Positions 1,006 through 24,298 of a DNA stretch of 64,000 nucleotides are shown here, piece by piece. The notes under the pieces were generated by a model, which was not told the origin of the DNA, ran no database searches, and saw only the letters and a program-made list of their open reading frames with translations. This DNA is from Spirochaetia bacterium (lineage in GTDB: Bacteria > Spirochaetota > Spirochaetia > CADAEX01), in assembly GCA_963668545.1 (NCBI GenBank), contig OY764868.1:1426065-1490064 (forward strand), written 5' to 3'. Within the stretch, counting starts at the first letter, position 1, and the number at the start of each line of letters is the position of its first letter. The translations under genes and the position numbers were made by a program.

Positions 1006-2121
1006 ATGAAAATAAAAATATGCTTCACAGGGGGAGGAACAGCAGGTCATGTTTATCCCGGTATATCTGTACTTGAAAAAATAAGGGAAAAGGGGCTTGA
1101 GGATAATTTTGAAACTGATTTTTTCTGGATAGGATCTTCCTCCGGAATGGAGAAGAACCTTATTTCAGATACAGGCATAAGATATTACGGAATACAGACC
1201 GGCAAACTGAGAAGATATTTTTCATTAAGGAATTTTACTGATCTTTTCAGAATTCTCGCCGGTCTTCTCCAGTCCCTGTTTATAATCATGAAGGAGAAAC
1301 CTGATCTGATTTTTTCCAAGGGGGGGTATGTCAGCGTACCGCCTGTTGTTTCTGGATGGATTCTGAGGATACCTGTGATAACCCACGAGTCTGATTATAC
1401 ACCTGGCCTTGCAACAAGGATAAACAGCCGTTTTTCTGAAAAGATACTGATTTCTGTCGGCGAAACAGCCAGGTATTTCAAAAAAGGATACATGGCCAGA
1501 ATTATTGAAACAGGAAATCCGGTCAGACAGAATTTTTTCTCCGGAGACCCTGAAAAAGGGAGAAAATACTTCGGAATTGAAAACAGTCTCCCGGTAATTC
1601 TTGTGCTGGGGGGAAGCCAGGGAGCTTCCGAGATAAATAATCTTGTAAGAGCAGTCCTTAACAGGCTTAGCGGAAGTTTCAATGTCATCCATCAGTGCGG
1701 AGAAAGGGATTATAAACCTGAAACCGGAGATAAAATCATCAACTATTATCAGGTTCCATTTGTAAGGGATGAATTCCCTGATATACTTGCATCAGCCGAC
1801 CTTGTTGTTTCGAGAGGCGGAGCCGGAACAATCTGGGAACTTTCAGCAGCAGGAAAGGCTGCTGTAATAATTCCGCTCAGAGGGAGCGGCACACGGGGGG
1901 ACCAGGTAATGAACTGCAGATTTCTCAACTCTATTGATGCAGCATCAGTTCTTGATGATAAAATAATTACAGAAGATATGTTCTTCGAAAGGATCAGGTC
2001 TGTTTTTGATAACAGAGAGTCTTTAGTCAAGTACAGAAAAAATATCAGAACAATCACCAAAAAAGATCCGGCTGAAAAAATATCCGGTATTATAATAGAA
2101 AGAGCAGGCGGTGGAATGTGA
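1006..2121 (+). CDS. murG: UDP-N-acetylglucosamine--N-acetylmuramyl-(pentapeptide) pyrophosphoryl-undecaprenol GlcNAc transferase
   Basis: 371 aa. N-terminal FTGGGTAGHVYPG glycine loop and C-terminal GT-B motifs (LVVSRGGAGTIWE) are typical of MurG. Confidence 0.9.
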   Translation: MKIKICFTGGGTAGHVYPGISVLEKIREKGLEDNFETDFFWIGSSSGMEKNLISDTGIRYYGIQTGKLRRYFSLRNFTDLFRILAGLLQSLFIIMKEKPDLIFSKGGYVSVPPVVSGWILRIPVITHESDYTPGLATRINSRFSEKILISVGETARYFKKGYMARIIETGNPVRQNFFSGDPEKGRKYFGIENSLPVILVLGGSQGASEINNLVRAVLNRLSGSFNVIHQCGERDYKPETGDKIINYYQVPFVRDEFPDILASADLVVSRGGAGTIWELSAAGKAAVIIPLRGSGTRGDQVMNCRFLNSIDAASVLDDKIITEDMFFERIRSVFDNRESLVKYRKNIRTITKKDPAEKISGIIIERAGGGM

Positions 2122-2591
2122 ACAGTATCAGTATTGTCCCTGTAGATATAATATTCTGTGTAGTTATTATTTTCTTTACTATTCGATGCATAATTAAGGG
2201 ATTTGTCACTGAATTCCTGTCCATGGCTGCAGTAATTGGGGGCATCAGTGCAGGTATTATATTTTCAGGAACTTTAAACAGGTATATTGATATTTATATA
2301 GGAAAATCTGGATGGAATTACCTTATTTCATTTCTCGTTCTTTTCATTGTTGTTTATCTTATTATCAAGATGTTTGAAAAAATGCTTTGCCGTTTTGTGG
2401 AAAGGGTTGAACTTGAACAGCTGGACAGGGCACTTGGTCTGTTCCTGGGACTTGTTGAAGGAGCTGTTGTTGTGCTTGTTATTATTCTGCTTATAAAGCT
2501 TCAGCCGCTTTTCCCCTATGATAAAATTGCAGACGGCAGTATTGCATTCAGCCTGGCGGAAAAAATATTTGTTTATCTGCCGGATTTCTAG
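2118..2591 (+). CDS. cvpA: CvpA family membrane protein (colicin V production protein-like)
   Basis: 157 aa with four predicted TM helices. Start overlaps the murG stop (ATGTGA). Same position in the conserved spirochete murG-cvpA arrangement. Confidence 0.75.
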   Translation: MNSISIVPVDIIFCVVIIFFTIRCIIKGFVTEFLSMAAVIGGISAGIIFSGTLNRYIDIYIGKSGWNYLISFLVLFIVVYLIIKMFEKMLCRFVERVELEQLDRALGLFLGLVEGAVVVLVIILLIKLQPLFPYDKIADGSIAFSLAEKIFVYLPDF

Positions 2592-2602
2592 AAGGATTAC
2601 AG

Positions 2603-3805
2603 ATGTTTGAAAATATAATTGGACATGAAAGTGTTGTGGACCAGATAAAGAATGAAATTACAGGGAAAAGGTTTCCAGGATCGTCAGTAATAACCGGCCC
2701 TGAGTATTCAGGCAAACAGACTCTTGCGCTTGAAATCGCCCGTTCCCTCACATGCCAGAAAAGCGGGGAATGGGGCTGCATGTGTGAATCATGCAGGCTG
2801 CAGAGGAGCCTGATGCATCCTTCAACACTGCTTGCGGGATCTGATTCATTTCTTCCTGAAATAAAAATGACTGCAGATATAATGAAAAAGAAGAAAGGTG
2901 AATTGTTCAGCCGCTTTCTTTTTGTAAGGAGTGTGAGAAAGCTTATCAAGAGATTTGATCCTGTTTTTACAGAAAGCGGAGATCAGAAGATTAAAAAGAT
3001 TATTCCTCTTATAAGAGAGATAGAAGATCTTATATATGATATTTCACCGGAAGAGGACAGTGATCCAGCAAAACTTGAAGAAAAAGCAGATCAGATTATT
3101 GAAAAGTGCGTAATAATTACAAATGATATAAATATTTCAGGTGTTTCAGTGGATCAGGTCAGAAAAATCACTTTCTGGGTCCACACAACAGGTTACAGGG
3201 AAAAGAAGGTTATAATAATTGAAAACTCCGAAAAAATGAATGAGAGTGCCAGGAATGCTGTTCTGAAGATTCTTGAGGAACCTCCTGAGGGGGTATATTT
3301 CATATTTCTGACATCCCGATACGGTGAAATTATCCCTACAATCAGATCACGCCTGAGGAAATACGAACTGAAGGAAAGGACTTTTCAGGAAAGCAGGGAT
3401 GTTATAGAAAAAATTTTCAGGGAAAAACCGGGTATTGAATTTTCCCTCCCTGATTTTTTCAATTCCTGGTCTACAGAACATGAGCTGATAAGAAAAGCAG
3501 CAAAAGAGTTTATTACAGATATCATAGATACGGGAAAAAATTTCAGCAGTACAGGTCCGGAGCTGAAAAAAATCATGAAATCGTCGGGACCTGATAATCT
3601 CAGGATATTTCTTGAATCAGCTCTTGAATATATCAGACTTCTTTTAAACAGCAGTGATTACATGAAAAGTTCACCCGGGACATACAGGGATATTAAAAAG
3701 CTTTCAAAGCTTATTAATGACGGATACAGAAACAATGAGATACTTAATGTAAATCCTGAACTTGTAATTGAAAATATATTTTTCAGGATGAGAAACAGTA
3801 TATGA
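2603..3805 (+). CDS. holB: DNA polymerase III delta-prime-like AAA+ protein
   Basis: 400 aa. Degenerate Walker A GPEYSGKQT followed by a Cys-rich zinc module (CQKSGEWGCMCESC), as seen in HolB/delta-prime clamp-loader subunits. Confidence 0.65.
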   Translation: MFENIIGHESVVDQIKNEITGKRFPGSSVITGPEYSGKQTLALEIARSLTCQKSGEWGCMCESCRLQRSLMHPSTLLAGSDSFLPEIKMTADIMKKKKGELFSRFLFVRSVRKLIKRFDPVFTESGDQKIKKIIPLIREIEDLIYDISPEEDSDPAKLEEKADQIIEKCVIITNDINISGVSVDQVRKITFWVHTTGYREKKVIIIENSEKMNESARNAVLKILEEPPEGVYFIFLTSRYGEIIPTIRSRLRKYELKERTFQESRDVIEKIFREKPGIEFSLPDFFNSWSTEHELIRKAAKEFITDIIDTGKNFSSTGPELKKIMKSSGPDNLRIFLESALEYIRLLLNSSDYMKSSPGTYRDIKKLSKLINDGYRNNEILNVNPELVIENIFFRMRNSI

Positions 3806-5001
3806 GAAATTTCATAAAGCGTGCTGTAAAAAGGATATCAAAACTTGACCAGAACCAGATTCTGAATCTGATTAATATTCTGACAGATGAAAATGAACTG
3901 CTCGAAATTGTTCTGGATTCAATGACAGACGGGCTTATAGTTTCTGACAGGGAGGAAAACCTTCTTTTTATCAATAAATCGGCCAAAAGGCTTCTGGGGA
4001 CACAGTATCTGAATGAAAATGTTGAAAACAGCCTGTGGGATGCTGTTCCAGACAGAAAGATCAGGGAAATGCTTGTCGAGTCTCTCAACAGACATGATGA
4101 CAGAACCGTAAACAACTATATTGATACAAACAAAAAGGAATCAAGGATTCTCGAGTTTACAACAACTCCCCTTGTAAGGGAAAAATGTATATACGGAAAT
4201 ATTATCATGATCAAGGATATTACCGAGAGAAAAATCAGGGAAACAAAGCTGAGAAGGGCTGAAAGCCTTGCTTCGCTTACTACGCTTGCGGCAGGTGTTG
4301 CGCATGAGATAAAAAACCCGCTTGGTTCTATCAGTATATATCTACAGCTTGTTGAAAAACTAGTTTCAAAAAAAGAGGATGATCCTGATAAGGAAAAAAT
4401 ACTTGGAAACCTGTCAGTTATTAATGAAGAGGTGGACAGGCTTAACCAGATTGTTGTGGATTTCCTTTTTGCAGTAAGACCTATTAATCTTGATCTTGAA
4501 TACAACAACATTAACAAGATTATTGATGAAACCCTTGATTTCATGAAGGTGGATTTTGATGAATCGGGGATAAAGGTGATAAAGGAGCTTTCTGATGATG
4601 TTCCTGATATCATGCTGGACAGCAGGTTTGTCAAACAGGCTATAATAAACCTCATTAAAAACGCAGAAGCTGCAATGAAGGAAAAAGAAGGGATACTTGA
4701 AATAAGATCTTATCTTAAAGACAGCAATGTGATGCTTGATATAAAAGACAACGGATCAGGGATACCTGAAAGAATAATTGGAAGAATATTTGAGCCGTAT
4801 TTCACAACAAAGGAATTCGGTTCCGGAATAGGCCTTACTCTGGTATATAAGATTATAAGGGAGCATAAAGGCGATATAGCAATCTCCTCTGTCGAGGGTG
4901 AGGGAACAACGTTCACACTGAGTTTTCCTGCACACAAGAAGGAACAGAAACTACTAAGCTGGGAAGGAGGTAACAGTGGAATTTTCGATACTTGTTGCTG
5001 A
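3802..5001 (+). CDS. cytoplasmic PAS-domain sensor histidine kinase
   Basis: 399 aa with no TM segment. PAS-like N-terminus, an H-box (AAGVAHEIKNPLGSI), and ATPase N/G boxes (NLIKNAEAA; DNGSGIPE; GSGIGLTLV). Overlaps the downstream response regulator by 26 nt. Confidence 0.85.
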   Translation: MRNFIKRAVKRISKLDQNQILNLINILTDENELLEIVLDSMTDGLIVSDREENLLFINKSAKRLLGTQYLNENVENSLWDAVPDRKIREMLVESLNRHDDRTVNNYIDTNKKESRILEFTTTPLVREKCIYGNIIMIKDITERKIRETKLRRAESLASLTTLAAGVAHEIKNPLGSISIYLQLVEKLVSKKEDDPDKEKILGNLSVINEEVDRLNQIVVDFLFAVRPINLDLEYNNINKIIDETLDFMKVDFDESGIKVIKELSDDVPDIMLDSRFVKQAIINLIKNAEAAMKEKEGILEIRSYLKDSNVMLDIKDNGSGIPERIIGRIFEPYFTTKEFGSGIGLTLVYKIIREHKGDIAISSVEGEGTTFTLSFPAHKKEQKLLSWEGGNSGIFDTCC

Positions 5002-6325
5002 TGATGAAAAAAACATACGTTTCGGCCTCGGTCAGGCCCTTGAAGGGGAAGGATATAATACATTTCTTGCGGAAAACGGGTTAAAAGCGCTTGAAATAAT
5101 TGAAAAGGAAAATATTGATATAGTTATCACAGACCTCAGAATGCCTGAAATGACAGGGGAGGAACTTCTTAAAAGAATTTCAAAAGACCATAAGAATATT
5201 CCTGTAATTATCCTCACCGGGCACGGTACAATTGAAAATGCTGTACAGACAATGAGGGACGGTGCATATGATTTCATGACAAAACCTCTTAATCTTGAAC
5301 ACCTGTTCCTGATTATAAAAAGGGCACTTAAAAACCGTGAGCTTGTCCTTAGCAACAAGGCTCTTCAGGAGGAAGTTGAGAAGATAAGGAACAACAAGCT
5401 TAAGGTTATAGGTAAAAGCGCTGCTATTAAAAAGGTCCTGGATACAGTACAGCAGATTGCATCAACAAGAGCTTCAGTGCTTGTAACAGGTGAAAGCGGA
5501 GTAGGCAAGGAAGTTATTGCAGATGTAATCCACAGTTTATCAGACAGGAATGATAAACCATTTATCAAGGTACACTGTGCAGCACTTTCAGATACCCTTC
5601 TCGAGTCTGAACTTTTCGGGCACGAGAAAGGGGCGTTTACAGGTGCTGTTGCCAGAAAAAGGGGTCGTTTTGAGCTGGCCCACAGGGGTACAATTTTTCT
5701 GGACGAGATAGGGGAGATAAACCAGTCGACACAGATAAAGCTTCTGAGGGTTCTTCAGGAAAGGACATTTGAAAGAGTCGGGGGAGAGGAAACTGTAAGT
5801 GTGGATGTCAGAATTATTTCTGCAACCAACAAGGACCTTGAAAAAGAGGTTGAAAAGGGTAATTTCAGGGAAGATCTATATTACAGGCTAAATGTTGTAA
5901 AACTTGATATTCCCCCTTTAAGGGAAAGAAAGGATGATATCCCTCTTCTGGTAGCTTCATTTCTCAAGGATTTTTCAAGGGAGAACAATAAAAACATAGA
6001 GGGACTTGACCAGAAGGCACAGGCTGCACTTTATAACCATAACTGGAAGGGAAATATCAGGGAACTCAGAAACTGCATTGAAAGCGCTGTTGTAATGGCA
6101 AGGGAGAGTATTATAAGCTATGATGATCTTCCCTTGTCTGTTAAAAGCGACAGCAGTGCTGATTTTATAAACATAAAAACCGGTGTCACACTTGAAGAAG
6201 TTGAAAAGACGGTTATACAGAGTACGCTGAACAGCCTTAACGGCAATAAAAGCAGAACAGCCGAAGTGCTTGGGATTGGGCGGAAAACTCTTCACAGAAA
6301 GCTTAACGAGTATAATCTTCAGTAG
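4976..6325 (+). CDS. sigma54-dependent response regulator, NtrC family (REC + AAA+ + Fis-type HTH)
   Basis: 449 aa. Receiver domain with phospho-acceptor context (DIVITDLRMPEMTG). Walker A GESGVGKE, GAFTGA loop (GHEKGAFTGA), and a C-terminal HTH (RTAEVLGIGRKTLHRKL). Confidence 0.9.
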   Translation: MEFSILVADDEKNIRFGLGQALEGEGYNTFLAENGLKALEIIEKENIDIVITDLRMPEMTGEELLKRISKDHKNIPVIILTGHGTIENAVQTMRDGAYDFMTKPLNLEHLFLIIKRALKNRELVLSNKALQEEVEKIRNNKLKVIGKSAAIKKVLDTVQQIASTRASVLVTGESGVGKEVIADVIHSLSDRNDKPFIKVHCAALSDTLLESELFGHEKGAFTGAVARKRGRFELAHRGTIFLDEIGEINQSTQIKLLRVLQERTFERVGGEETVSVDVRIISATNKDLEKEVEKGNFREDLYYRLNVVKLDIPPLRERKDDIPLLVASFLKDFSRENNKNIEGLDQKAQAALYNHNWKGNIRELRNCIESAVVMARESIISYDDLPLSVKSDSSADFINIKTGVTLEEVEKTVIQSTLNSLNGNKSRTAEVLGIGRKTLHRKLNEYNLQ

Positions 6326-7606: not shown

Positions 7607-7657
7607 TAACAGATACAGAATATTGATTTTATAACCATAACAGTTTAGCCTTAAAAC

Positions 7658-9115: not shown

Positions 9116-9122
9116 TTACTTA

Positions 9123-9929
9123 TCAGATATTTCCTTCATCATAGAAATACTGGCCTGTATAAACATATTCAGGTGCAGCTGTTATAAAAGCTTCATTTTT
9201 AATCTGGTCCCATTCTGCAAAAGCCTTTGTATTATAGAAATTTACAAGAAGGGAGTTTTCATAACCGTTCAGAACAGATGCAATTGCACCTGCTGATAAA
9301 GTCAGCGAATTGTCTGTATTCATCCTGTTTTTCCAGGCTGTTATACTGATTATGTCAGGAGAAAGAGGTTTTACAAAAACAGGCTGGCAGAGGGAAAGGG
9401 TTTCTGATTTCATTATTTCCTTGTGCATCTTTTTAAGGAACTCCCTCGGCTTGTTCTCCGGGAAAAAAACTATTCCTGTTTTACCGATTTTCACCCTGCT
9501 GAATCTGTAAGTGAAATTGTTGTATATCAGGTTTTCAGTATTGCCAGTATCAATTTCCGGTTCTCCTGTCTTTATCCTGAAATTCCTGCTGTCTATGGCT
9601 CTGAGAGTATATTCCCTGTTGTTGTTGATTATAATTATATCTGAATTGTCTGTAGAAACAGTATCATAAATATATCTTGATGCTGCAATGGATGAATCAG
9701 AAGAATAGTCATGAAAAGAACCGTCGGGAGAAAAAGTCAGTATTTCCGTGCAGTTATTATTATGTTTCGTAATAAATATAATTCCATTAGCACCGGCTCC
9801 TGTATGCCTGTCGCAGATTTTTACCGCAATGTCTGAGAAAACGGAATGATCCGGCAGCTTTTCATCTCTGAAATCAGCAAGCAGAAGATCATTCCGTAAT
9901 ATATGAAGTTTGAAAAAGTTTATTTCCAA
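9123..9929 (-). CDS. diaminopimelate epimerase-like protein with both catalytic cysteines replaced by serine
   Basis: 268 aa. N-terminus FFKLHILRNDLLLAD parallels the DapF FSKMHGLGNDFMVVD, and DRHTGAGANG parallels DRHLGVGFDQ. Positions aligned to DapF Cys73 and Cys217 read S (SSDSSIAAS; LTLSAGAIAS). Confidence 0.6.
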   Translation of the reverse strand: MEINFFKLHILRNDLLLADFRDEKLPDHSVFSDIAVKICDRHTGAGANGIIFITKHNNNCTEILTFSPDGSFHDYSSDSSIAASRYIYDTVSTDNSDIIIINNNREYTLRAIDSRNFRIKTGEPEIDTGNTENLIYNNFTYRFSRVKIGKTGIVFFPENKPREFLKKMHKEIMKSETLSLCQPVFVKPLSPDIISITAWKNRMNTDNSLTLSAGAIASVLNGYENSLLVNFYNTKAFAEWDQIKNEAFITAAPEYVYTGQYFYDEGNI

Positions 9930-9931
9930 TT

Positions 9932-11272
9932 TTACTTCTCAAAAAACTCTTTATGGAGGTTGATAATTGTATTGTCTATTTCATTCTGATCCAGAACCAT
10001 GGAGAGGTTTACATCAGAAGATCCCAGCGAAATCATTTTAATGACAGCAGGGGAAAGTGTGGCAAAAATTCTCGAGATAAGAGAAGAATCCTTCCATATA
10101 TTTTTTCCAACAAGACAGATAATTCCGCATCCGGATTCAACTGTTGTTTTTCCTATCATTTCAAGCTCTGATTTGATTGAATTCAGGTTTTTTGTATCTT
10201 CGATTGTCATTGATACAGAAACCTCTGATGTTGAAATAAGATCAACAGGTGTCTGGTATTTGTTGAAAATTGAAAATATTCTGGAGAGGAAACCGTATGC
10301 ATTCAGCATTCTTGAAGAAGTGATGTTGATCAGTGTTATGTTTTTCTTCCCTGCAATTCCAGTAAGTCCTGATGAAGCAGCATCTTTGATAATTCTTGTT
10401 CCGGGAGCATCGGGATTCCTTGTATTTTTTACAACTACCGGTATCCTTTTTTCAACCGCCGGCTGTATTGTTGACGGGTGTACAACCTTTGCCCCGAAAA
10501 AAGCAAGTTCGGCAGCTTCGATATAGCTTATTGTTGTCATTGTTTTTGCACCTTTGACAAGCCTGGGGTCAGTTGTAAGGATTCCGTCAACATCTGTCCA
10601 TATCTGTACTTCTTCAGCATTAAGTGCTGACCCGTAGATTGTAGCTGTATAGTCGGAACCGCCTCTTCCAAGGGTTGTGGTAGAACCGCTTTCAGTTGAA
10701 CTGATAAAACCCTGCGCAATTATCAGCTTGTCAGATTCAGGCTTAACCATTTCCCTTATTATGTTGTCAGTAAGAGGAAAAATGGGAACTGCAGCTGAGT
10801 AGTTGTCATCAGTTTTTATTATATCCCTTGAATCAAGAAGCTCTGCCCTGATTCCCCTTTCAACAGCTCTGTGATATATGAGTGCAGTTGAGAGTCTCTC
10901 TCCGAATGATAAAAGAGTGTCTCTGCTTTTGAGCGTGCATTCCTGAAGGAGAAAAAGCCCTCTTGCAAGTGAATACAGCTGTTCAAACATCTCATTGATT
11001 GTTTCAGATGCTTTTTTGAGGTTGTCGCCTGTAAGGAAAGCTTCTGCTGTTTCAAGATGGGATTTTTTGAGGTTTTCAATATTGTTTATTATCCCGTCTT
11101 TGTTTTTGCCTGCAGCAAAATCAGCAATTTCAACAAGTCTGTCTGTTGTTTTTCCCATGGCGGAAGAAATCATCAGCGGTGCTGATTTAATCTGTTTTTC
11201 AGCAATATCAATTGCCTTGTCAATCCATTCGCTGTTCTGGACTGAAGTTCCTCCGAATTTTAATACAATCAT
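9932..11272 (-). CDS. lysC: aspartate kinase
   Basis: 446 aa. N-terminal MIVLKFGGTSV kinase motif and C-terminal ACT-type regulatory domains. Confidence 0.9.
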   Translation of the reverse strand: MIVLKFGGTSVQNSEWIDKAIDIAEKQIKSAPLMISSAMGKTTDRLVEIADFAAGKNKDGIINNIENLKKSHLETAEAFLTGDNLKKASETINEMFEQLYSLARGLFLLQECTLKSRDTLLSFGERLSTALIYHRAVERGIRAELLDSRDIIKTDDNYSAAVPIFPLTDNIIREMVKPESDKLIIAQGFISSTESGSTTTLGRGGSDYTATIYGSALNAEEVQIWTDVDGILTTDPRLVKGAKTMTTISYIEAAELAFFGAKVVHPSTIQPAVEKRIPVVVKNTRNPDAPGTRIIKDAASSGLTGIAGKKNITLINITSSRMLNAYGFLSRIFSIFNKYQTPVDLISTSEVSVSMTIEDTKNLNSIKSELEMIGKTTVESGCGIICLVGKNIWKDSSLISRIFATLSPAVIKMISLGSSDVNLSMVLDQNEIDNTIINLHKEFFEK

Positions 11273-11545
11273 GTTCCTTTCCTGTTCCTGTTTTCATGTA
11301 TCTGATGTTGTTAATCAGCGTTATTGTACAGTATTATTATTTTAATAGAAAGCTTTTAGAAAGCCGGTAAAAATTATAAATAACTGTTCTGATATATAAT
11401 AACACTTCAATGATGCTGATTGATTGTTGCTAACATTAATGAATCATTATGTCAATAAAGCAGAATTTACCATGGTGTCTTAAAATATTATCTATGATAT
11501 GCTAAAATATATAAAAGTTGATAAACTTGATTATGGAGAAATATT

Positions 11546-12343
11546 TTGAAAAAAGGTTTTCATGAAAGAGTGGAACAGGTCTACAGATCCTGTAATATTG
11601 ACAGAGAATATTGTCCTGAAACAGCTGTTGTTCTCGGTTCAGGCTTGTCTGAGCTGGTGAAATCATACAGCGGAAGGGAAATATCATTTTCAGATATAGA
11701 AGGATTTCCTTCTGTAAACATAAAAGGGCATCCGGGGCTTTTCAAGCTTGCAGAAAAAGCAGTTCTCATGGCAGGGAGGATTCACTTTTATGAGGGACAT
11801 TCCATGGAAGATGTTGTTCTTCCTGTTGCTCTTTTGTGGCGGATGGGGGTAAAAAAAATAATTCTCACAAATGCTGCGGGGGGGGTAAACAGGGAATTTG
11901 TTCCCGGGGACCTTGCACTTATTACTGATCATATAAATCTTACCGGGCAGAACCCTCTGATAGGAAAAAACGAAGGTTTTGAAGGCCCCCGTTTCCCTGA
12001 CATGAGCAGGGTATATGATGAGGAAATAAACAGGGCAGCAATGTCAATAGATCCGGAACTTAGGAAAGGTGTTTATGCAGGACTTACCGGTCCTTCATAT
12101 GAAACACCTGCAGAGATAAGGATGCTTGAAGCAGCAGGAGCTGATATGGTGGGTATGTCTACAGTAAATGAGGCAATTGCTGCAAGGTATCTTGGTATGA
12201 GGGTTGCCGGTATTTCATGTATTACCAATATGGCAGCAGGCATTCTTGATCAGCCTCTTGACCACAGCGAAGTAGTTGAGACAGGGAAAAAGGTCAACAG
12301 GCGGTTCATAAACCTTGTCAGCAGGCTTCTTGAAGAAATATAA
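11546..12343 (+). CDS. purine nucleoside phosphorylase (PNP/MTAP family I)
   Basis: 265 aa. Motifs VVLGSGL, GRIHFYEGH and TVNEAIAARYLGMRVAGISCITNMAAG are typical of trimeric PNP. Confidence 0.85.
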   Translation: MKKGFHERVEQVYRSCNIDREYCPETAVVLGSGLSELVKSYSGREISFSDIEGFPSVNIKGHPGLFKLAEKAVLMAGRIHFYEGHSMEDVVLPVALLWRMGVKKIILTNAAGGVNREFVPGDLALITDHINLTGQNPLIGKNEGFEGPRFPDMSRVYDEEINRAAMSIDPELRKGVYAGLTGPSYETPAEIRMLEAAGADMVGMSTVNEAIAARYLGMRVAGISCITNMAAGILDQPLDHSEVVETGKKVNRRFINLVSRLLEEI

Positions 12344-14842: not shown

Positions 14843-15109
14843 TTATTCTACAATTGCAATAATATCATTTGCCTTGAGAATGAGGAATTCCTCCCCATCG
14901 ATTTTGATAGATGTTCCGGCATATTTATCATACATGATTTTCTGGCCGATTTTAACTTTAATTACATCTTTATCATCACCAATAGCTGATACAACGCCTG
15001 TCTGGGTTTTTTCCTGTGCTGTCTGAGGTATGTATAGTCCCCCTTTTGTTTTTTCTTCTGACTCAGAGATTTTAACAAGTACACGGTCCCCTAAAGGTGT
15101 GATTTTCAT
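14843..15109 (-). CDS. groES: co-chaperonin GroES
   Basis: 88 aa, MKITPLGDRVLVK...GGLYIPQTAQEK. No groEL follows it. The downstream space is occupied by the convergent dinG. Confidence 0.95.
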   Translation of the reverse strand: MKITPLGDRVLVKISESEEKTKGGLYIPQTAQEKTQTGVVSAIGDDKDVIKVKIGQKIMYDKYAGTSIKIDGEEFLILKANDIIAIVE

Positions 15110-15391
15110 ATAATCCTCCTGTGGAAATATATTATATTTGATTTTTGTGTTTTTTATTAATCAAAAATATACGAATGTTCTTAATATTGGTCAAGATAAA
15201 TATATCAGGAAACATAAAAATCATTTTACTGAATGATAATGGGTCAAAATGAACCTTAATTACTTACAGACTGAACATGTGTGTCGAAATGATACTGTAT
15301 AATAAAAGGAGTGATTTCAAGGAAAAAGTTAAAGTTAATATAAATATATATATTATAAGGAATTAAATAATTTTTAACTGGTTTATGGAAT

Positions 15392-15407
15392 TGGCATGAA
15401 CTTTGCT
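15392..15407 (+). promoter_or_regulatory. sigma54 (RpoN) -24/-12 promoter: TGGCAT-gaact-TTGCT
   Basis: GG at 15393-15394 and GC at 15405-15406 with canonical spacing (consensus TGGCAC-N5-TTGCW). About 25 nt upstream of the ATG of the RpoS-like gene. RBS GAGGTGA at 15420-15426. Confidence 0.7.
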
Positions 15408-15430
15408 TTATATAGCTGAGAGGTGATAAA

Positions 15431-16300
15431 ATGACAGCAGAAAGAACTAGGCTTTATAACAGCCAGTCAAATGATGAAAATGTATTATCAATCTATCTTA
15501 AAGAAATTAATGCAATACCGCTTCTTTCAAGAGAAGATGAGGATAAATATGCCAGGCTTGCAGCTGATGGCGATGAAAAGGCAAGAGAGATACTTATTAA
15601 ATCCAATCTCCGTTTTGTTGTTAATGTTGCCAAGAAATATCAGAACAAGGGAATTCCCCTTTCTGATCTTATCAATGAAGGTAATATAGGTTTGATGAAT
15701 GCAATAGAAAAGTATGATGTCGACCGCGGCTATCATTTTATTTCATATGCAGTATGGTGGATAAAACAGTCAATTCTCAAGTCAATAGGCGAAAAATCAA
15801 GAATGATAAGGCTGCCGTTAAACAGAGCAGGTGAACTGGTGCAGATAGAAAGGGCAAAAAAGGAACTACTTTCAGAGAATGGCATTGATCCCGAGCTTCA
15901 GGAAATAGCTGATGCAGTAGGACTTGATGAGGAACATGTAAGAGATCTCATTGATATATCACGTGATCTTGTTTCTATAGATAATCCTGTAAAGTCAGGT
16001 GAAAAAGAATCTGCACTTCTGAGTGATTATATTGTTGATAATAAGACACCTCAGCCGGAAGATATTGTTATTGACAGTTCTCTCAAGGAGGAAATAAACA
16101 AACTTCTTGAAACACTTTCAGAAAAGGAAGCTGATATAATTGAACAGAGATTCGGTCTTAACGGTATTATACCTATGTCGCTGAAGGAAATTGGAGACAG
16201 ATATAACCTGACAAAAGAAAGGATAAGACAGATAGAAAAGAAAGCTATTGACAGAATGAAACATGTTTCAAGAAGCCGTTATCTGGAAGCTTTTGTTTGA
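15431..16300 (+). CDS. rpoS: group-2 sigma70-family sigma factor (RpoS-like; regions 1.2-4.2, no region 1.1)
   Basis: 289 aa. Region 2 (DLINEGNIGLMNAIEKYD; YAVWWIKQSI) and region 4.2 HTH (SLKEIGDRYNLTKERIRQIEKKAIDRM). Too short for RpoD. Preceded by a sigma54 promoter, as for Borrelia rpoS. Confidence 0.8.
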   Translation: MTAERTRLYNSQSNDENVLSIYLKEINAIPLLSREDEDKYARLAADGDEKAREILIKSNLRFVVNVAKKYQNKGIPLSDLINEGNIGLMNAIEKYDVDRGYHFISYAVWWIKQSILKSIGEKSRMIRLPLNRAGELVQIERAKKELLSENGIDPELQEIADAVGLDEEHVRDLIDISRDLVSIDNPVKSGEKESALLSDYIVDNKTPQPEDIVIDSSLKEEINKLLETLSEKEADIIEQRFGLNGIIPMSLKEIGDRYNLTKERIRQIEKKAIDRMKHVSRSRYLEAFV

Positions 16301-16346: not shown

Positions 16347-16383
16347 ATAACCGTAGGTGATAATACTTATTGCCTGCGGTTAT
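16347..16383 (+). terminator. stem-loop downstream of the sigma factor gene (ATAACCGtAGG...CCtGCGGTTAT inverted repeat)
   Basis: 11-bp imperfect inverted repeat with a 15-nt loop, 46 nt after the stop codon. No strong T-tract follows. Confidence 0.35.
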
Positions 16384-20544: not shown

Positions 20545-21237
20545 TTAATATGTTATGTAACCAAGCCATACAGGCTTGCTGTAGATATTATATACATTGT
20601 CATCTTTGCCGTATGCAAAAACATACATTGAAAGAGCAAGTTGTCCTGATGATCTGTCAGAATCACCAGAAACATGATCAGCCGGTATAAAAGTTTTATA
20701 TTCAGTTTTTCCGGAAGTTGAATTATACTGTGTAATATTTCTTCTAAGGGTTCTATCAGAATAACCTGAGTATTCAACTCTTGGAGCTGTATCAGAAGAA
20801 ACCTCATCAAAATATACTGTAAGTGTAAAGGATGTATCCCTGTCTGAATAATCAACAGGAATCATCGGATAAGTTGTGGTTTCCTCTGTTGTGAGAACTG
20901 TGTTTAATCTTCTATACCCTACATTTTTAAGATCATCAGGTTCAGGCTCTGATGTGTTGAATATTTTTTTATCATCATCTGCAATTTCAGAATGACTGTT
21001 ATAGTATTTATAGTAAATCTCGTAACCCCTGAATACTTCAGGATCATTATCTGATCTGTTGTATATTAAAGCTGAACTGGGAATACCCGGTTCAAAAGTG
21101 GTTACATTGGGAGCTGACAGATACGGAGATGTATAAAGACCGCAGGATGACGTAAATATTGTAATGAGTATAAATATTTTTAAATGTAAGAAAAAATTAC
21201 GGGGTATCATACCCTCCCTTGACATCAAGAAGCTCAT
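20545..21237 (-). CDS. hypothetical lipoprotein
   Basis: 230 aa. N-terminal hydrophobic segment ending in SSCG (lipobox-like), then a Tyr/Ser/Asp-rich domain. The 5' end overlaps the cyclase 3' end. Confidence 0.45.
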   Translation of the reverse strand: MSFLMSREGMIPRNFFLHLKIFILITIFTSSCGLYTSPYLSAPNVTTFEPGIPSSALIYNRSDNDPEVFRGYEIYYKYYNSHSEIADDDKKIFNTSEPEPDDLKNVGYRRLNTVLTTEETTTYPMIPVDYSDRDTSFTLTVYFDEVSSDTAPRVEYSGYSDRTLRRNITQYNSTSGKTEYKTFIPADHVSGDSDRSSGQLALSMYVFAYGKDDNVYNIYSKPVWLGYITY

Positions 21238-23587
21238 AGATGAGTACAGGTTTGTTTTTACCCTTAACCCTTATATTGTCAAGTTCCCTTACAACAACAT
21301 GTTCATTTACAAGTGCATGAGTGAACTCACTGATTATGACATTTGTTTTATACTGCTTGTTTGTACCTTCAAGCCTTGCACCGAGGTTTACATTATCACC
21401 CATAAGTGTGTAGTTCATTCTACCCATGGATCCCATGTTTCCTACTGTCATTACACCGGAATTAAGACCGATACCGATATTAATCCTTTTTTCTTCAGGC
21501 CATCCTTCATTCAGCTTGTGAAGTGCATCCATCTGTTTTAAGGCGCACTTGCATGCGAATAATGCATGTTCCTCCTGAGGAATCGGGGCACCCCAGAAGC
21601 ACATTATTTCATCCCCTACATACTTATCAAGTGTACCGTTAAACTCAAGGATTATATCTGTCATTGCTGTCAGATAAATATTAAGATGGTTTACAAGTTC
21701 CTGAGGTGTCATGGTTTCTGAAAGGGTTGTAAATCCCCTGATATCTGAAAAAAGAACTGTAAGGTTTTTGTCAACACCACCGAGTTCGGGAGGATTATCG
21801 AGAATCTGATCAACTACTGCAGGACTTACATATTTACCGAACATGTTCTTAATCCTTTTCTTGTCCTTTTCCTCTGTCATAACCCTGTAGATTACAATAG
21901 ATATGAAAGTAAGCGATCCTCCCAACGCAGGAGACGGGAAATCAAGTACTATGTTGAAATTGTCAAATATGATACTAGTTGTTATGAAATAGGCCGCTAT
22001 TGAAACAATTGAAAAAAGTGCTGCCCAGAGGGTTGATAGCCTTGAAGTAACTATAGCCGTAATAAAAACAAGAATAAACAGTAATAAAACATTTACCCAT
22101 TTGTCCACTTCTGTAATAAATTTATTCATTATAATGGTGTTCAGTGAGTTTGCATGTATCTCGACACCATACATGAGTCCGTAAGGTGTTGTTTTTTCAT
22201 CTGCTGCAATACCTCTTGCGAACGGGCCTGTCATGAGGATCTTGTTACCGACAGCTTTTGTTTTCGGCCATTTTGAAGGATCAGGACCAGGGGATTTCGC
22301 AGCATATCCTGAATAGGACCTGATTGGAAATGTCTGGTGTCCTCCGGGGTCTGCAGTTGAAGGATTTCCCATGAAATTTATAAGCATCTGTCCATGTTCA
22401 TCTATCGGGATAATAATATCATCAAGAACCTTTTCAACTCCCGGTTTCTTTAAAGAGCCGTCTTTATTATATTTAGGCTGTTTAACAGTTATCCTGTAAG
22501 GTTCCCATGACTGCTTTTCCGTATTGTAGACTTCAGGTGACGGTATTTTTATGTATTCCCCTACTTTCACCTCAAGATCTTCAGGCGATTTGTTGAAATA
22601 CTGCATAGCAAGAGAAAGAGTTATTGAAGGAACAAATGTGTCTTTGTATTTTTTTACAATAAAGTAATAACTGTCCTGCCCTTCTGCAGTTTTTGATTTA
22701 ATTGGAGGAGAATTTGTCTGTATAGTATTTTTAAGATCTGTAATCTGTTCCTCTGTAAGCGGATACTTTATCGGGTGATCAATTCCATTAATATCAGTCC
22801 ATCCCAGTCTTTCAAAGTTTTTGTGATCAATGGTAAAGGATGGAGAAAGTTCTTCCAGATTAATTACATCCATAAGAATGGACGATTTTGAAATTAGACC
22901 CTGTCTTCTGTAGACCTTGTCGAAGTCTTCCCTGAAATTTGCATGCCCGTAACCCCTGCATGCTCTTGCAAGAGGCTGAAGAGGCGGCTGAAGACCTGTA
23001 TATGAGCTGATTGTATGCCAGTTCCCTTCGATATTTGTTATTCTGCCGTAGTTGTCATAAAGAAGTTCCTGTCTTTTTACATAATCGTCACGGATGGCAT
23101 CTGACGGTGGTACTTCGTCCAGGACTGTTTCAAGAAAAACATTTCCGTTTTCCTTGATAGCTTCAACAAGAAGAGCATCATCGTAGGCTTTTCTTTCATC
23201 AGGTTCAATGAAAAAAACGTCAATAAATAATGCCCTTTCCCGTTCATTCTGGTTCTGTATCCTGGAAAAGGACTTTATAAGGTCTGCATGTCTGTATCTC
23301 GGAAAAGGCCATTTTCCGAATTTGTTGAGACTTCTGAAATCTATACCGACTATCATTATATCCGGTGATATATTCGGATTCTGTACAGACTGAGTTACAC
23401 CTTCCTGGATATAGGTTTTCTGTGAGACATTTTTAAGGTAAAAATTGACATCAAGCATTTTCAACTTAAGCTTATTGGTAATATCAGTAAAGTTATCAAC
23501 ACCGATTATAAGGAAAAATATAAAAAGTGCTATTATTATACCGAATATCTTTGTTTCAAATACTTTTATAGATCCCTTTTTACCCAC
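21197..23587 (-). CDS. CHASE2-sensor class III adenylate/guanylate cyclase
   Basis: 796 aa. N-terminal TM, large periplasmic region, TM cluster, then cyclase homology domain (LTVLFSDIRGFTTLSE...KYVGDEIMCFWGAP...GIGLNSGVMTVGNMGS). Confidence 0.85.
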   Translation of the reverse strand: MGKKGSIKVFETKIFGIIIALFIFFLIIGVDNFTDITNKLKLKMLDVNFYLKNVSQKTYIQEGVTQSVQNPNISPDIMIVGIDFRSLNKFGKWPFPRYRHADLIKSFSRIQNQNERERALFIDVFFIEPDERKAYDDALLVEAIKENGNVFLETVLDEVPPSDAIRDDYVKRQELLYDNYGRITNIEGNWHTISSYTGLQPPLQPLARACRGYGHANFREDFDKVYRRQGLISKSSILMDVINLEELSPSFTIDHKNFERLGWTDINGIDHPIKYPLTEEQITDLKNTIQTNSPPIKSKTAEGQDSYYFIVKKYKDTFVPSITLSLAMQYFNKSPEDLEVKVGEYIKIPSPEVYNTEKQSWEPYRITVKQPKYNKDGSLKKPGVEKVLDDIIIPIDEHGQMLINFMGNPSTADPGGHQTFPIRSYSGYAAKSPGPDPSKWPKTKAVGNKILMTGPFARGIAADEKTTPYGLMYGVEIHANSLNTIIMNKFITEVDKWVNVLLLFILVFITAIVTSRLSTLWAALFSIVSIAAYFITTSIIFDNFNIVLDFPSPALGGSLTFISIVIYRVMTEEKDKKRIKNMFGKYVSPAVVDQILDNPPELGGVDKNLTVLFSDIRGFTTLSETMTPQELVNHLNIYLTAMTDIILEFNGTLDKYVGDEIMCFWGAPIPQEEHALFACKCALKQMDALHKLNEGWPEEKRINIGIGLNSGVMTVGNMGSMGRMNYTLMGDNVNLGARLEGTNKQYKTNVIISEFTHALVNEHVVVRELDNIRVKGKNKPVLIYELLDVKGGYDTP

Positions 23588-23602: not shown

Positions 23603-24298
23603 TTATTTTATCAATTCAGAAGCTTTCAGGTAAATTATACGGTCTCTGGCAAAATTTGTCCAACCACTATTTGAATAATTGTCGACGATCTCTGAATAGC
23701 TTTTCAGAGCTTTATCATAGTTTTCCGAAGATTCAGAAAGCCTTCCTATTGAAAAAAGAATTCCCGGAATATCAGGATAGGAATCTGAATATTTATCTTT
23801 TACAGATTCATATGTTTTAAGAGCTTCATCATAATTACCAAGTTCCTCGCTGCAGACACCGCTGTTGTAAAGAGCAATAGGAGCAAGATAAGTATCGGAA
23901 TACCTTTCTGCATATGCCTTGAATGACTCAGAGGATTTCTCATATTCCTTTCTTGCAAAATAGATATTGCCTTTCATGAAAACAGCCCTCTGTCCTGCAT
24001 AAAAGGAAGGATATTCCTTTATAAGTGAATCAAGAGAGTCGATTATTTTTTTAATATCATCATCTGACAGATCGCCGTCTTTTTCTGAAAGAAGATTGGA
24101 ATAATCTGTCTGGATTTTTTCAATTGCAAGTGCAGATTCTTCATTTTTGCCGGATTTGAAGTTAATTGAAACAGCTATACTTGAAACTGCAATTACAATA
24201 AGGACTGAAAAGATTATAATAATTTTACTGTAGTTTGAAAGAAAACTGTTCAGGCTGTTTAATATTTTATCTTTTCCTGTAATTTCATCCTGGTGCAT
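23603..24298 (-). CDS. membrane-anchored TPR-repeat protein
   Basis: 231 aa. One N-terminal TM helix (IIIFSVLIVIAVSSIAVSI) followed by TPR-like repeats (AGQRAVFMKGNIYFARKEYEKS...). Confidence 0.55.
   Translation of the reverse strand: MHQDEITGKDKILNSLNSFLSNYSKIIIIFSVLIVIAVSSIAVSINFKSGKNEESALAIEKIQTDYSNLLSEKDGDLSDDDIKKIIDSLDSLIKEYPSFYAGQRAVFMKGNIYFARKEYEKSSESFKAYAERYSDTYLAPIALYNSGVCSEELGNYDEALKTYESVKDKYSDSYPDIPGILFSIGRLSESSENYDKALKSYSEIVDNYSNSGWTNFARDRIIYLKASELIK

What the first reader, a model, noticed from the sequence alone, without database searches (positions are those of the whole stretch)
15250..16300. Near-consensus sigma54 promoter drives a short RpoS-like sigma factor, with a cognate NtrC-type two-component system in the same window
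The sequence shows TGGCAT-gaact-TTGCT at 15392-15407. It has exact -24 GG / -12 GC spacing and ends ~25 nt before the ATG of a 289-aa sigma70-family protein. That protein has regions 1.2-4.2 only, which fits RpoS-like size rather than RpoD. From 3802 to 6325 lie an overlapping PAS histidine kinase and an NtrC-family activator with an intact GAFTGA loop. They sit in a murG-cvpA-holB-like-hk-rrp gene order that resembles the Borrelia murG...hk2-rrp2 neighbourhood. The window is about 38-40% GC, and I infer from that it is not Borrelia. On that reading, an Rrp2-RpoN-RpoS-like alternative-sigma cascade may operate in a spirochete where it has not been characterised. A TGTATAAT -10-like element at about 15296-15303 could also give a longer sigma70 transcript, as in Borrelia, but this is speculative.
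Basis: partly seen in the sequence, partly recalled or inferred. Interest (0 to 1): 0.7.

Follow-up and report, generated by a model that had tools for sequence, protein, structure and literature searches.

The report
Spirochaete sigma-54 to sigma-factor cascade
A spirochaete gene for a short RNA-polymerase sigma factor lies behind a sigma-54 promoter and two enhancer-like sites conserved across dozens of spirochaete genomes, close to orthologues of the Lyme-disease regulators Hk2 and Rrp2, so the kind of switch known from Borrelia (Rrp2-RpoN-RpoS) looks like an old and widespread spirochaete circuit.

Summary
TGGCAT-GAACT-TTGCT lies at 15392-15407, 23 nt before the ATG of a 289-aa sigma-70-family ORF that has regions 1.2, 2, 3 and 4 only. 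It is the best sigma-54-type site in the window. In 80 related loci, 26 of the 28 perfect TGGCAC-N5-TTGCW matches in 1.72 Mb lie just upstream of this gene, and 56 of 68 assessable spirochaete loci carry the element. None of 10 non-Spirochaetia relatives has it. I also found a conserved dyad, G[GT]GTCA-N3-TGAC[AC]C. It usually lies 101 and 141 nt upstream of the promoter and is about 400-fold enriched there. The window has two copies 40 bp apart. The kinase and activator at 3802-6325 are orthologues of Borreliella Hk2 and Rrp2 (Rrp2 55% identity, same murG-cvpA-holB-hk-rrp order). In 25 loci they lie within 6 kb upstream of the sigma gene, and in 11 they are directly adjacent to it.

Some points are not supported. 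By phylogeny the sigma factor is neither a proteobacterial RpoS nor an orthologue of Borrelia RpoS. It belongs to a clade of short primary-like sigmas. The TATAAT at 15298 is not conserved. rpoN and a long rpoD could not be checked in this genome. No paper in the searched library describes this cascade outside Borrelia.

The parts
1006..3805 (+). murG, cvpA and a holB-like (DNA pol III delta') gene. These are the conserved upstream part of the hk-rrp gene string. Stops and starts overlap, as in an operon.
   Evidence: Pfam and NCBIfam. The order is the same in Borreliella locus L081 and in L031-L038.
3802..5001 (+). Sensor histidine kinase (PAS, HisKA, HATPase_c), orthologue of Borrelia Hk2
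   Evidence: Pfam. 36% identity over the full length to the Borreliella hk2 product. Conserved position.
4976..6325 (+). NtrC-type sigma-54 activator (receiver, AAA+ with GAFTGA, Fis-type HTH), orthologue of Borrelia Rrp2. Proposed activator of the promoter at 15392.
   Evidence: Pfam. GAFTGA seen in the translation. 55% identity over 447 aa to Borreliella Rrp2. It lies within 6 kb upstream of the sigma gene in 25 loci and is directly adjacent in 11.
15241..15255 (.). Distal enhancer-like dyad GGGTCAAAATGAACC (11 of 12 consensus positions), 151 nt upstream of the promoter motif
   Evidence: Conserved block in the alignment of six close relatives. Belongs to the dyad family enriched upstream of the orthologous promoters.
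15281..15295 (.). Proximal enhancer-like dyad GTGTCGAAATGATAC (10 of 12), 111 nt upstream of the promoter motif and 40 bp from the distal copy
15392..15407 (+). Sigma-54 (-24/-12) promoter TGGCAT-GAACT-TTGCT. The predicted start of transcription is near 15418.
   Evidence: Conservation. The start site is inferred from the usual 11-13 nt spacing after the -12 GC and has not been measured.
15418..15426 (+). Ribosome-binding region GAGAGGTGA at the very 5' end of a predicted leader of about 13 nt
   Evidence: Sequence. AGAGGT is invariant in six relatives.
15431..16300 (+). 289-aa sigma-70-family factor with regions 1.2, 2, 3 and 4 and no region 1.1. Member of a clade of short primary-like sigmas.
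16347..16383 (+). Hairpin with a 17-bp stem after the sigma ORF. Probably the 3' end of the transcript, which would make the gene monocistronic.
   Evidence: Fold energy -27.1 kcal/mol, z = -5.7. It has no clear U tract, and the terminator scan found nothing.
14843..15194 (-). Context: divergent monocistronic groES (14843-15109) with its own conserved sigma-70-type promoter (TTGACC 15194-15189, TATATT 15171-15166)

Best explanation
The 289-aa sigma-factor gene is transcribed from an enhancer-dependent sigma-54 promoter.

**Shown by sequence comparison**
- A -24/-12 element is conserved in front of this gene across Spirochaetia.
- One to three copies of the dyad G[GT]GTCA-N3-TGAC[AC]C lie about 100-150 nt further upstream, spaced by about 40 bp.
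- The orthologues of the Borrelia two-component pair Hk2/Rrp2 are the conserved neighbours of the gene.

**Inferred**
- The PAS kinase (3802-5001) phosphorylates the NtrC-type activator (4976-6325).
- The activator binds the two dyads at 15241-15255 and 15281-15295 through its C-terminal Fis-type helix-turn-helix and oligomerises.
- Its GAFTGA loop and ATP hydrolysis then open the closed complex of sigma-54 RNA polymerase at 15392-15407.
- Transcription starts near 15418 and gives a leader of about 13 nt that begins with the ribosome-binding site. It ends at the hairpin at 16347-16383.
- The product is a primary-like sigma without region 1.1. It redirects core RNA polymerase to a second set of promoters only when the kinase signal is present.

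In logic this is the Borrelia Rrp2-RpoN-RpoS cascade, with two differences: an enhancer is present, and the target sigma belongs to a different clade.
For: **Promoter**
- It is the best sigma-54-type site in the window and the only match to TGGCAYN5TTGCW.
- 26 of 28 perfect matches in 1.72 Mb of related loci are proximal to the orthologous gene. 56 of 68 assessable spirochaete loci have at least 9 of 11 positions with GG and GC intact.
- Six further loci have a degenerate copy (five at -37 to -39 from the start codon, L053 at -72).
- 0 of 10 relatives outside the class Spirochaetia have it within 200 nt.
- Flanking sequence is unconserved while the motif is invariant.

**Enhancer-like dyads**
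- Matches at 11 or more of 12 positions occur 43 times in 15.9 kb of upstream windows and 6 times in 928 kb of background.
- All 12 perfect copies are upstream of the promoter.
- Positions cluster at -101 and -141.
- The dyads are present in loci with no groES nearby, so they track the promoter and not groES.

**Activator**
- 55% identity to Rrp2, with the same gene string as in Borreliella.
- The gene order runs through a graded series: hk-rrp-sigma (11 loci), hk-rrp-groES-sigma (7), hk-rrp-dinG-groES-sigma (about 6), and the window with 8.4 kb more inserted.

**Sigma-54 itself**
- Its presence is implied by two activator-type genes in the window. A published survey found a near-perfect co-occurrence of sigma-54 and its activators (PMC3162934).

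**Precedent**
- Borrelia rpoS has TTGGCAC-N5-TTGCA and depends on RpoN and Rrp2 (PMC1976401). I saw the promoter directly in L081.
Against: - There are no transcript data, so the start site and sigma-54 dependence are inferred.
- rpoN was not found in the window or in any fetched locus, and the rest of the 3.79-Mb genome could not be searched.
- In this genome the hk-rrp pair is 9 kb from the promoter.
- A second activator-like gene exists at 24299-25309.
- The window's own dyads are imperfect (11/12 and 10/12). Taken alone they are no more frequent than chance (3 matches against 4.5 expected).
- I derived the dyad consensus from the same loci on which I measured its enrichment.
- Nothing links the dyad to this particular activator except neighbourhood and the presence of an HTH.
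- The -24 element reads TGGCAT rather than TGGCAC, as it does in a third of the orthologous loci.
Confidence: 0.72

Rival explanations
1. The sigma-54-type motif is not used. The gene is read from an ordinary sigma-70 promoter in the 320-nt intergenic region, for example the TATAAT at 15298-15303, alone or together with a sigma-54 transcript as proposed for the long rpoS transcript of Borrelia.
For: A perfect TATAAT is present at 15298-15303. The single sigma-54 match is not significant within the window alone. Borrelia is reported to have more than one route to rpoS expression (own knowledge, not checked here).
Against: TATAAT has no -35 partner at 16-18 nt, and the promoter scan did not list it. 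It is conserved only in the closest relative, L062, and is lost in L001-L004. It directly abuts the proximal dyad. The sigma-54 element is conserved in 56 of 68 loci across several families, which is hard to explain for an unused site.
Confidence: 0.08
2. The promoter is sigma-54-dependent, but the activator is not the Rrp2 orthologue. It would be the second activator-like protein in the window (24299-25309) or one encoded elsewhere, and the dyads would bind some other regulator.
For: 24299-25309 encodes a 336-aa protein with the Sigma54_activat AAA+ domain, a lid and a C-terminal HTH, and with no regulatory N-domain. In this genome the hk-rrp pair is 9 kb away. In Borrelia, purified Rrp2 did not bind DNA upstream of rpoS (PMC1976401).
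Against: Its sigma-54-contact loop reads GSFTDA rather than GAFTGA. It has no conserved linkage to the sigma gene in other loci. The Rrp2 orthologue lies within 6 kb upstream in 25 loci and is directly adjacent in 11.
Confidence: 0.12
3. The 289-aa protein is the housekeeping sigma of this lineage, as short sigmas without region 1.1 are in Bacteroidota. It would not be a conditional, RpoS-like factor, and the sigma-54 site would only modulate its level.
For: It groups 100/100 with short sigmas of FCB phyla and Leptospirales. The NCBI pipeline names relatives 'RpoD/SigA'. The best solved-structure matches are SigA. Residues that read -10 and -35 elements in sigma-70 are largely kept. No long rpoD was seen, but none could be looked for.
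Against: Sigma-54 promoters are silent without an activated enhancer protein (established knowledge), which does not suit a housekeeping sigma. Borrelia and Treponema carry a long RpoD of about 600 aa (own knowledge, not tested here). One MAG (metagenome-assembled genome) has two paralogues of the short sigma, both behind sigma-54-type sites (L046 and L054).
Confidence: 0.08

Closest known systems
Borrelia burgdorferi Hk2-Rrp2-RpoN-RpoS cascade
   Same: An NtrC-type activator (orthologous, 55% identity) and its kinase lie in the same murG-cvpA-holB-hk-rrp string. A TGGCAC-N5-TTGC promoter lies directly in front of a monocistronic gene for a sigma of 266-289 aa with regions 1.2 to 4. The sigma gene lies within a few kb of the hk-rrp string.
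   Different: The target sigmas are only 33% identical and do not group together in trees (0/100 bootstraps). Borrelia RpoS shares more unique residues with E. coli RpoS than with this clade. Borreliella has no upstream dyad, which agrees with reports of enhancer-independent activation. This lineage and most Spirochaetia have one to three dyads. In Borreliella rpoS lies upstream of murG, whereas here the sigma gene lies downstream of rrp. The Borrelia leader is about 50 nt and the leader here is about 13 nt.
Classical NtrC-type enhancer-dependent promoters (e.g. enterobacterial glnAp2)
   Same: A -24/-12 promoter with tandem dyad-symmetric sites about 100-150 bp upstream on the same helical face, and an activator with receiver, AAA+ (GAFTGA) and Fis-type HTH domains.
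   Different: The half-site is GTGTCA / TGACAC rather than the NtrC site. The target is a sigma-factor gene, not a nitrogen-assimilation gene. Binding has not been tested.
Short primary sigma factors of Bacteroidota and related FCB phyla (own knowledge: the 'unusual primary sigma' of Bacteroides)
   Same: Closest sequence relatives outside Spirochaetia (45-49% identity, joint clade 100/100). Same length of about 290 aa, no region 1.1, and shared signatures NLRFVV, FISYAVWWIKQ and RLPLNR.
   Different: Those relatives have no sigma-54 element upstream, and some show sigma-70-type promoters instead. Their role as housekeeping sigmas is recalled, not tested here.
Proteobacterial RpoS (TIGR02394)
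   Same: Similar size and domain content. It is the best NCBIfam match.
   Different: The score of 273 bits is below the family cut-off of 378.7. The protein does not group with E. coli RpoS in the tree. E. coli rpoS is not sigma-54-dependent (own knowledge).

Membership tests
Sigma-54-dependent (-24/-12) promoter | GG and GC dinucleotides exactly 10 bp apart within TGGCAC-N5-TTGCW | tested here: met
   TGGCATGAACTTTGCT at 15392-15407, 10 of 11 specified positions
Sigma-54-dependent (-24/-12) promoter | Position and orientation: intergenic, upstream of a gene, and conserved in orthologous loci | tested here: met
   The motif ends 23 nt before the ATG. 56 of 68 spirochaete loci have it, and 26 of 28 perfect matches in 1.72 Mb are at this position.
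Sigma-54-dependent (-24/-12) promoter | rpoN present in the genome | not testable with these tools
   None in the window or in the fetched loci. Presence is implied by two activator-type genes and by published co-occurrence (PMC3162934).
Sigma-54-dependent (-24/-12) promoter | Transcription start 11-13 nt after the GC, lost in an rpoN mutant | not testable with these tools
   Needs RNA data
NtrC-family bacterial enhancer-binding protein / Rrp2 orthologue | Receiver domain, AAA+ sigma-54 interaction domain with GAFTGA, and a C-terminal HTH_8 | tested here: met
   Pfam PF00072, PF00158, PF25601 and PF02954. GHEKGAFTGA seen in the sequence.
NtrC-family bacterial enhancer-binding protein / Rrp2 orthologue | Full-length similarity and conserved gene context with Borrelia rrp2 | tested here: met
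   55% identity over 447 aa. The murG-cvpA-holB-hk-rrp order is identical in L081.
Borrelia-type Rrp2-RpoN-RpoS cascade | The target gene is an orthologue of Borrelia rpoS | tested here: not met
   33% identity. phmmer scores of Borreliella RpoS against this clade, E. coli RpoS and B. subtilis SigA are all about 145-160 bits. It groups with the spirochaete clade in 0/100 bootstraps. Long-branch effects cannot be excluded.
Borrelia-type Rrp2-RpoN-RpoS cascade | A sigma-70-family gene directly behind a sigma-54 promoter and genetically linked to hk2-rrp2 | tested here: met
Proteobacterial RpoS (TIGR02394 / NF004207) | Score at or above the curated family cut-off | tested here: not met
   273 bits against 378.7, and 262 against 394
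Group 1 primary sigma (RpoD/SigA) | Region 1.1 and full-length match to the RpoD equivalog models | tested here: not met
   Only 18 residues precede region 1.2. All RpoD and SigA models score below their cut-offs.
Group 1 primary sigma (RpoD/SigA) | It is the only primary-like sigma in the genome, or essential | not testable with these tools

The most novel reading that the evidence does not exclude
The Hk2-Rrp2 / sigma-54 / second-sigma module, including a tandem GTGTCA-N3-TGACAC enhancer, is ancestral to the class Spirochaetia. It is found in Treponema, Sphaerochaetaceae, Rectinemataceae, Spirochaetaceae and Brevinematales-like lineages. On this reading the Borrelia RpoN-RpoS virulence switch is a derived version that lost the enhancer. 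Its target sigma either diverged beyond recognition or was replaced. The regulated sigma is a short primary-like factor of the type that serves as housekeeping sigma in Bacteroidota, so spirochaetes would keep a whole 'second primary' transcription programme behind a two-component, sigma-54 gate.
Probability: 0.5. Interest if true: 0.75.

Novelty: new variant of a known kind. Interest (0 to 1): 0.62.

Why it matters
The Rrp2-RpoN-RpoS pathway is the central host-adaptation switch of the Lyme-disease agent. The papers I could search treat it as a Borrelia feature.

- **Origin.** If the same wiring (orthologous kinase and activator, a sigma-54 promoter, a sigma-factor target) is present in most Spirochaetia, the Borrelia pathway has an evolutionary origin that can be studied.
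- **Open Borrelia questions.** Why Rrp2 keeps a DNA-binding domain, and why activation there appears enhancer-independent, can be addressed by comparison with relatives that still have an enhancer.
- **Treponemes.** Treponemes that can be cultured or manipulated genetically gain a concrete, testable candidate for a global regulatory switch. Their short sigma is currently annotated only as 'RpoD/SigA' or 'sigma-70 family'.
- **Binding site.** The analysis gives a specific predicted binding site for the Rrp2 family.

Tried and rejected
1. **Looking for rpoN.**
   - A tblastn with the C-terminal domain of E. coli RpoN (recalled from memory) found nothing in the window or in the 80 loci.
2. **Obtaining Borrelia RpoS.**
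   - I deduced a peptide from published qPCR primers. The first query was too short.
   - The padded query used one of the three large searches and returned only two fragments.
   - One fragment then served as query for the representative search, which returned Borreliella RpoS, P0132.
3. **Orthology of the window sigma and Borrelia RpoS by sequence.**
   - phmmer scores do not discriminate.
   - Several high scores were assembly artefacts with a duplicated region 2.
   - The NJ tree and bootstraps do not join the two proteins.
   - A count of uniquely shared residues favours E. coli RpoS.
   - I therefore dropped the claim that the sigma genes are orthologous.
4. **The TATAAT at 15298 as a second promoter.** Rejected for lack of a -35 partner and lack of conservation.
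5. **Known RNA families around the gene.** None found, apart from one chance-level match.
6. **The second activator (24299-25309) as the cognate one.** Considered and ranked lower because of its loop sequence and its lack of linkage.
7. **Literature.** Seven searches found no description of this cascade outside Borrelia. The library is incomplete, so this does not prove absence.
Full report
**1. The observation**

- The sequence TGGCAT-GAACT-TTGCT is at 15392-15407 on the + strand. GG and GC have the canonical spacing. The motif ends 23 nt before the ATG (15431) of a 289-aa ORF.
- Pfam finds sigma-70 regions 1.2, 2, 3 and 4. Nothing precedes region 1.2 except 18 residues.
- 3802-5001 encodes a PAS/HisKA/HATPase kinase. 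It overlaps 4976-6325, which encodes a receiver, sigma-54-interaction AAA+, lid and HTH_8 protein with an intact GAFTGA loop.
- murG, cvpA and a holB-like gene precede them with overlapping stops and starts.
- GC content is 35-41%.

**2. Is it more than chance?**

- Within the window alone the case is weak. The pattern occurs once, and 20 of 100 shuffles give at least one match somewhere. It is nevertheless the best-scoring site on either strand.
- The strength comes from comparison. A scan of one genome per species returned 80 loci that encode relatives of the sigma factor. L001-L070 are almost all Spirochaetota MAGs (metagenome-assembled genomes): Spirochaetia, Treponema, Treponemataceae, Sphaerochaetaceae, Rectinemataceae and Brevinematales. 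L071-L080 are Leptospirales or other phyla.
- In the 1.72 Mb of these loci (both strands) there are 28 perfect TGGCAC-N5-TTGCW matches. 26 of them lie immediately upstream of the sigma gene. The same holds for 49 of the 66 matches at 10 or more of 11 positions.
- 56 of the 68 spirochaete loci with upstream sequence have at least 9 of 11 positions with GG and GC intact.
- Six more have a degenerate copy, five of them at -37 to -39 from the start codon and L053 at -72, for example TTGGCACGGTATTTGTA.
- None of the ten outgroup loci has one within 200 nt, and some show TTGACA/TATAAT-type promoters instead.
- Positions I did not select on also fit the sigma-54 consensus. The base after TGGCAY is always a purine, and T precedes the motif in 63%. 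The flanks are not conserved.
- In an alignment of the six closest relatives, the motif, the ribosome-binding site and a few other blocks stand out against 70% mean identity.

**3. A new feature: conserved upstream dyads**

- The same alignment showed two conserved blocks 110-150 nt upstream. A dyad search over all loci recovered one recurrent palindrome, G[GT]GTCA-N3-TGAC[AC]C.
- Matches at 11 or more of 12 positions occur 43 times in the 15.9 kb lying 40-300 nt upstream of the promoters, and 6 times in the remaining 928 kb. That is roughly a 400-fold enrichment. All 12 perfect copies are upstream of a promoter.
- The positions cluster at -101 and -141 from the T of TGGCAC. A third copy sometimes lies at about -80.
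- The window has GGGTCAAAATGAACC at 15241-15255 and GTGTCGAAATGATAC at 15281-15295, 40 bp apart.
- **Caveats.** The consensus was derived from these same loci. The window's two copies alone are not significant.
- The dyads occur in loci where groES is not the neighbour, so they follow the sigma-54 promoter and not groES.
- Some animal-associated Treponema loci carry GTGCC-N5-GGCAC instead. Both half-sites have changed together, as expected for a protein-binding dyad.
- The geometry is tandem dyads about 120 and 160 bp upstream of the start, spaced by four helical turns. This is the classical layout of an NtrC-type enhancer (established knowledge).

**4. The activator**

- I recovered Borreliella RpoS (P0132, WP_267525950) by a detour through published primer sequences. 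I then fetched its locus, L081.
- The gene order there is rpoS, three genes, then murG-cvpA-holB-hk2-rrp2, all on one strand. The promoter TTGGCACAATTTTTGCATGG lies 62 nt before the ATG.
- The window's activator is 55% identical to Rrp2 over its full length. The kinase is 36% identical to Hk2. They are orthologues.
- In 25 of the loci the Rrp2 orthologue lies within 6 kb upstream of the sigma gene, in a graded series:
  - hk-rrp-sigma (11 loci)
  - murG-cvpA-holB-hk-rrp-groES-sigma-ppdK (7 loci)
  - hk-rrp-dinG-groES-sigma-ppdK (about 6 loci)
  - the window, where aminotransferase, GntR-aminotransferase, aspartokinase and phosphorylase genes (6362-12343) and dinG add 8.4 kb.
- This conserved neighbourhood is the main argument that the Rrp2 orthologue is the cognate activator.
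- A second activator-like gene lies at 24299-25309. It has a PspF-like layout and a GSFTDA loop, and it has no such linkage.

**5. What the sigma factor is**

- NCBIfam ranks proteobacterial RpoS first, but well below the cut-off, and the RpoD models follow closely.
- The best solved-structure matches are firmicute SigA, then RpoD and RpoS.
- All close database relatives are 285-300 aa, and the NCBI pipeline names them 'RpoD/SigA' or 'sigma-70 family'.
- In NJ trees the spirochaete proteins form a 100/100 clade together with the short sigmas of Gemmatimonadota, Latescibacterota, KSB1, Ignavibacteriota, Bacteroidota and Leptospirales. Shared signatures are NLRFVV, FISYAVWWIKQ and RLPLNR.
- Borreliella RpoS joins the spirochaete clade in 0/100 replicates.
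- The Borrelia branch is long and NJ is crude, so orthology is not excluded. It is, however, not shown.
- 'RpoS-like' is therefore justified only as a functional analogy: a second, primary-like sigma that is made conditionally.
- Residues that read -10 and -35 elements in sigma-70 are largely conserved. I infer that the factor probably recognises sigma-70-like promoters.

**6. Breadth, including cultured species**

- Named orthologues include Marispirochaeta aestuarii, Sediminispirochaeta smaragdinae and S. bajacaliforniensis.
- Others are Treponema putidum, T. pedis, T. zuelzerae and Brucepastera parasyntrophica.
- Contigs encoding the proteins named T. pedis and T. zuelzerae, and a contig from an unnamed Treponema that also carries an Msp (major outer sheath protein) gene, keep TGGCAT-N5-TTGCT.
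- The T. putidum genome has TAGCAT, so the essential GG is broken.
- groES is the divergent neighbour in nearly all loci.

**7. Mechanism proposed**

- **Shown.** The conserved promoter, the conserved dyads, the orthology and linkage of hk-rrp, and the domain content.
- **Inferred.**
  - The kinase phosphorylates the activator, and the activator binds the dyads.
  - ATP-driven opening of the sigma-54 closed complex follows.
  - Transcription starts near 15418 and gives a 13-nt leader that begins with GAGAGGTGA.
  - The transcript ends at the 17-bp-stem hairpin at 16347-16383.
  - The new sigma then redirects RNA polymerase.
- The signal and the regulon are unknown.

**8. Comparison with what is known, and novelty**

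- The architecture is that of the Borrelia Hk2-Rrp2-RpoN-RpoS cascade (PMC1976401, PMC3037356, PMC12655853).
- **Differences.**
  - An enhancer is present here. It is absent in Borreliella, which agrees with the reported failure of Rrp2 to bind upstream of rpoS.
  - The target sigma belongs to another clade.
  - The leader is very short.
- Seven full-text searches found no description of such a cascade in any other spirochaete. A sigma-54 comparative survey mentions the sigma-S link only for Borrelia.
- The library lacks most subscription journals, so prior description cannot be excluded.
- I rate it a new variant of a known kind.

**9. Limits**

- There are no RNA data.
- rpoN and a long rpoD were not verified in this genome. 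They are implied by two activator-type genes, by the published co-occurrence of sigma-54 with its activators, and by my recollection of Borrelia and Treponema genomes.
RpoS is corroborated by P0126.
- The NJ phylogeny is only a first pass.

Noticed in passing
window 24299-25309 (-): Second sigma-54-interaction protein, 336 aa. It has an AAA+ domain, a lid and a C-terminal Fis-type HTH, and no regulatory N-domain (PspF-like layout). Its sigma-54-contact loop reads GSFTDA instead of GAFTGA. It lies in a minus-strand run: rpsA (25299-26999), this gene, a TPR protein (23603-24298), and a CHASE2 adenylate/guanylate cyclase (21197-23587).
   Followed up: partly
window 21197-23587 (-); L082 2019-4829: A CHASE2-domain nucleotide cyclase lies about 5 kb from the sigma gene both here and in the Treponema putidum locus. 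This may be coincidence or a loose linkage.
   Followed up: no
window 14843-15194 (-): groES is monocistronic, with no groEL beside it, and is divergent from the sigma gene. This adjacency holds in most Spirochaetia loci, including Treponema. Its sigma-70-type promoter (TTGACC, 17 nt, TATATT) is invariant in six relatives.
   Followed up: partly
L082 9925-9950 (Treponema putidum CP038803): The orthologous promoter reads TAGCAT-AGTTT-TTGCT. The essential GG of the -24 element is AG. The contigs carrying the T. pedis- and T. zuelzerae-named proteins (L084, L085) and L083 keep GG. This may be loss or rewiring of the switch in one oral treponeme lineage.
   Followed up: partly
L082 9703-9722, L083 9652-9670, L084 near 5670, L045: These Treponema loci carry a perfect GTGCC-N5-GGCAC palindrome instead of GTGTCA-N3-TGACAC. 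The same base has changed in both half-sites, which suggests co-evolution with the binding protein.
   Followed up: no
L046 and L054 (same MAG, CALGPD01): Two paralogues of the short sigma occur in one genome, each preceded by a sigma-54-type element. L057 and L067 (same MAG, CAYUYT01) are two paralogues without one.
   Followed up: no
window 16347-16383 (+): A 17-bp-stem hairpin lies after the sigma ORF (z = -5.7). It has no clear U tract, so it is not a textbook intrinsic terminator.
   Followed up: partly
window 36286-38979 (+): An 897-aa protein whose last 160 residues are a complete GreA. The 740-residue N-terminal extension has no Pfam match.
   Followed up: no
L059 (record titled Clostridium sp. 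AM49-4BH): This contig has the full spirochaete gene order hk-rrp-dinG-groES-sigma-ppdK, with the sigma-54 promoter and three dyads. It is probably a mis-binned or mislabelled spirochaete contig.
   Followed up: no
window 7658-9115 (+) and 6362-7606 (-): A GntR-aminotransferase fusion regulator (MocR type) lies divergent from an aminotransferase gene. Both are inside the 8.4-kb segment that separates hk-rrp from the sigma gene in this genome only.
   Followed up: no
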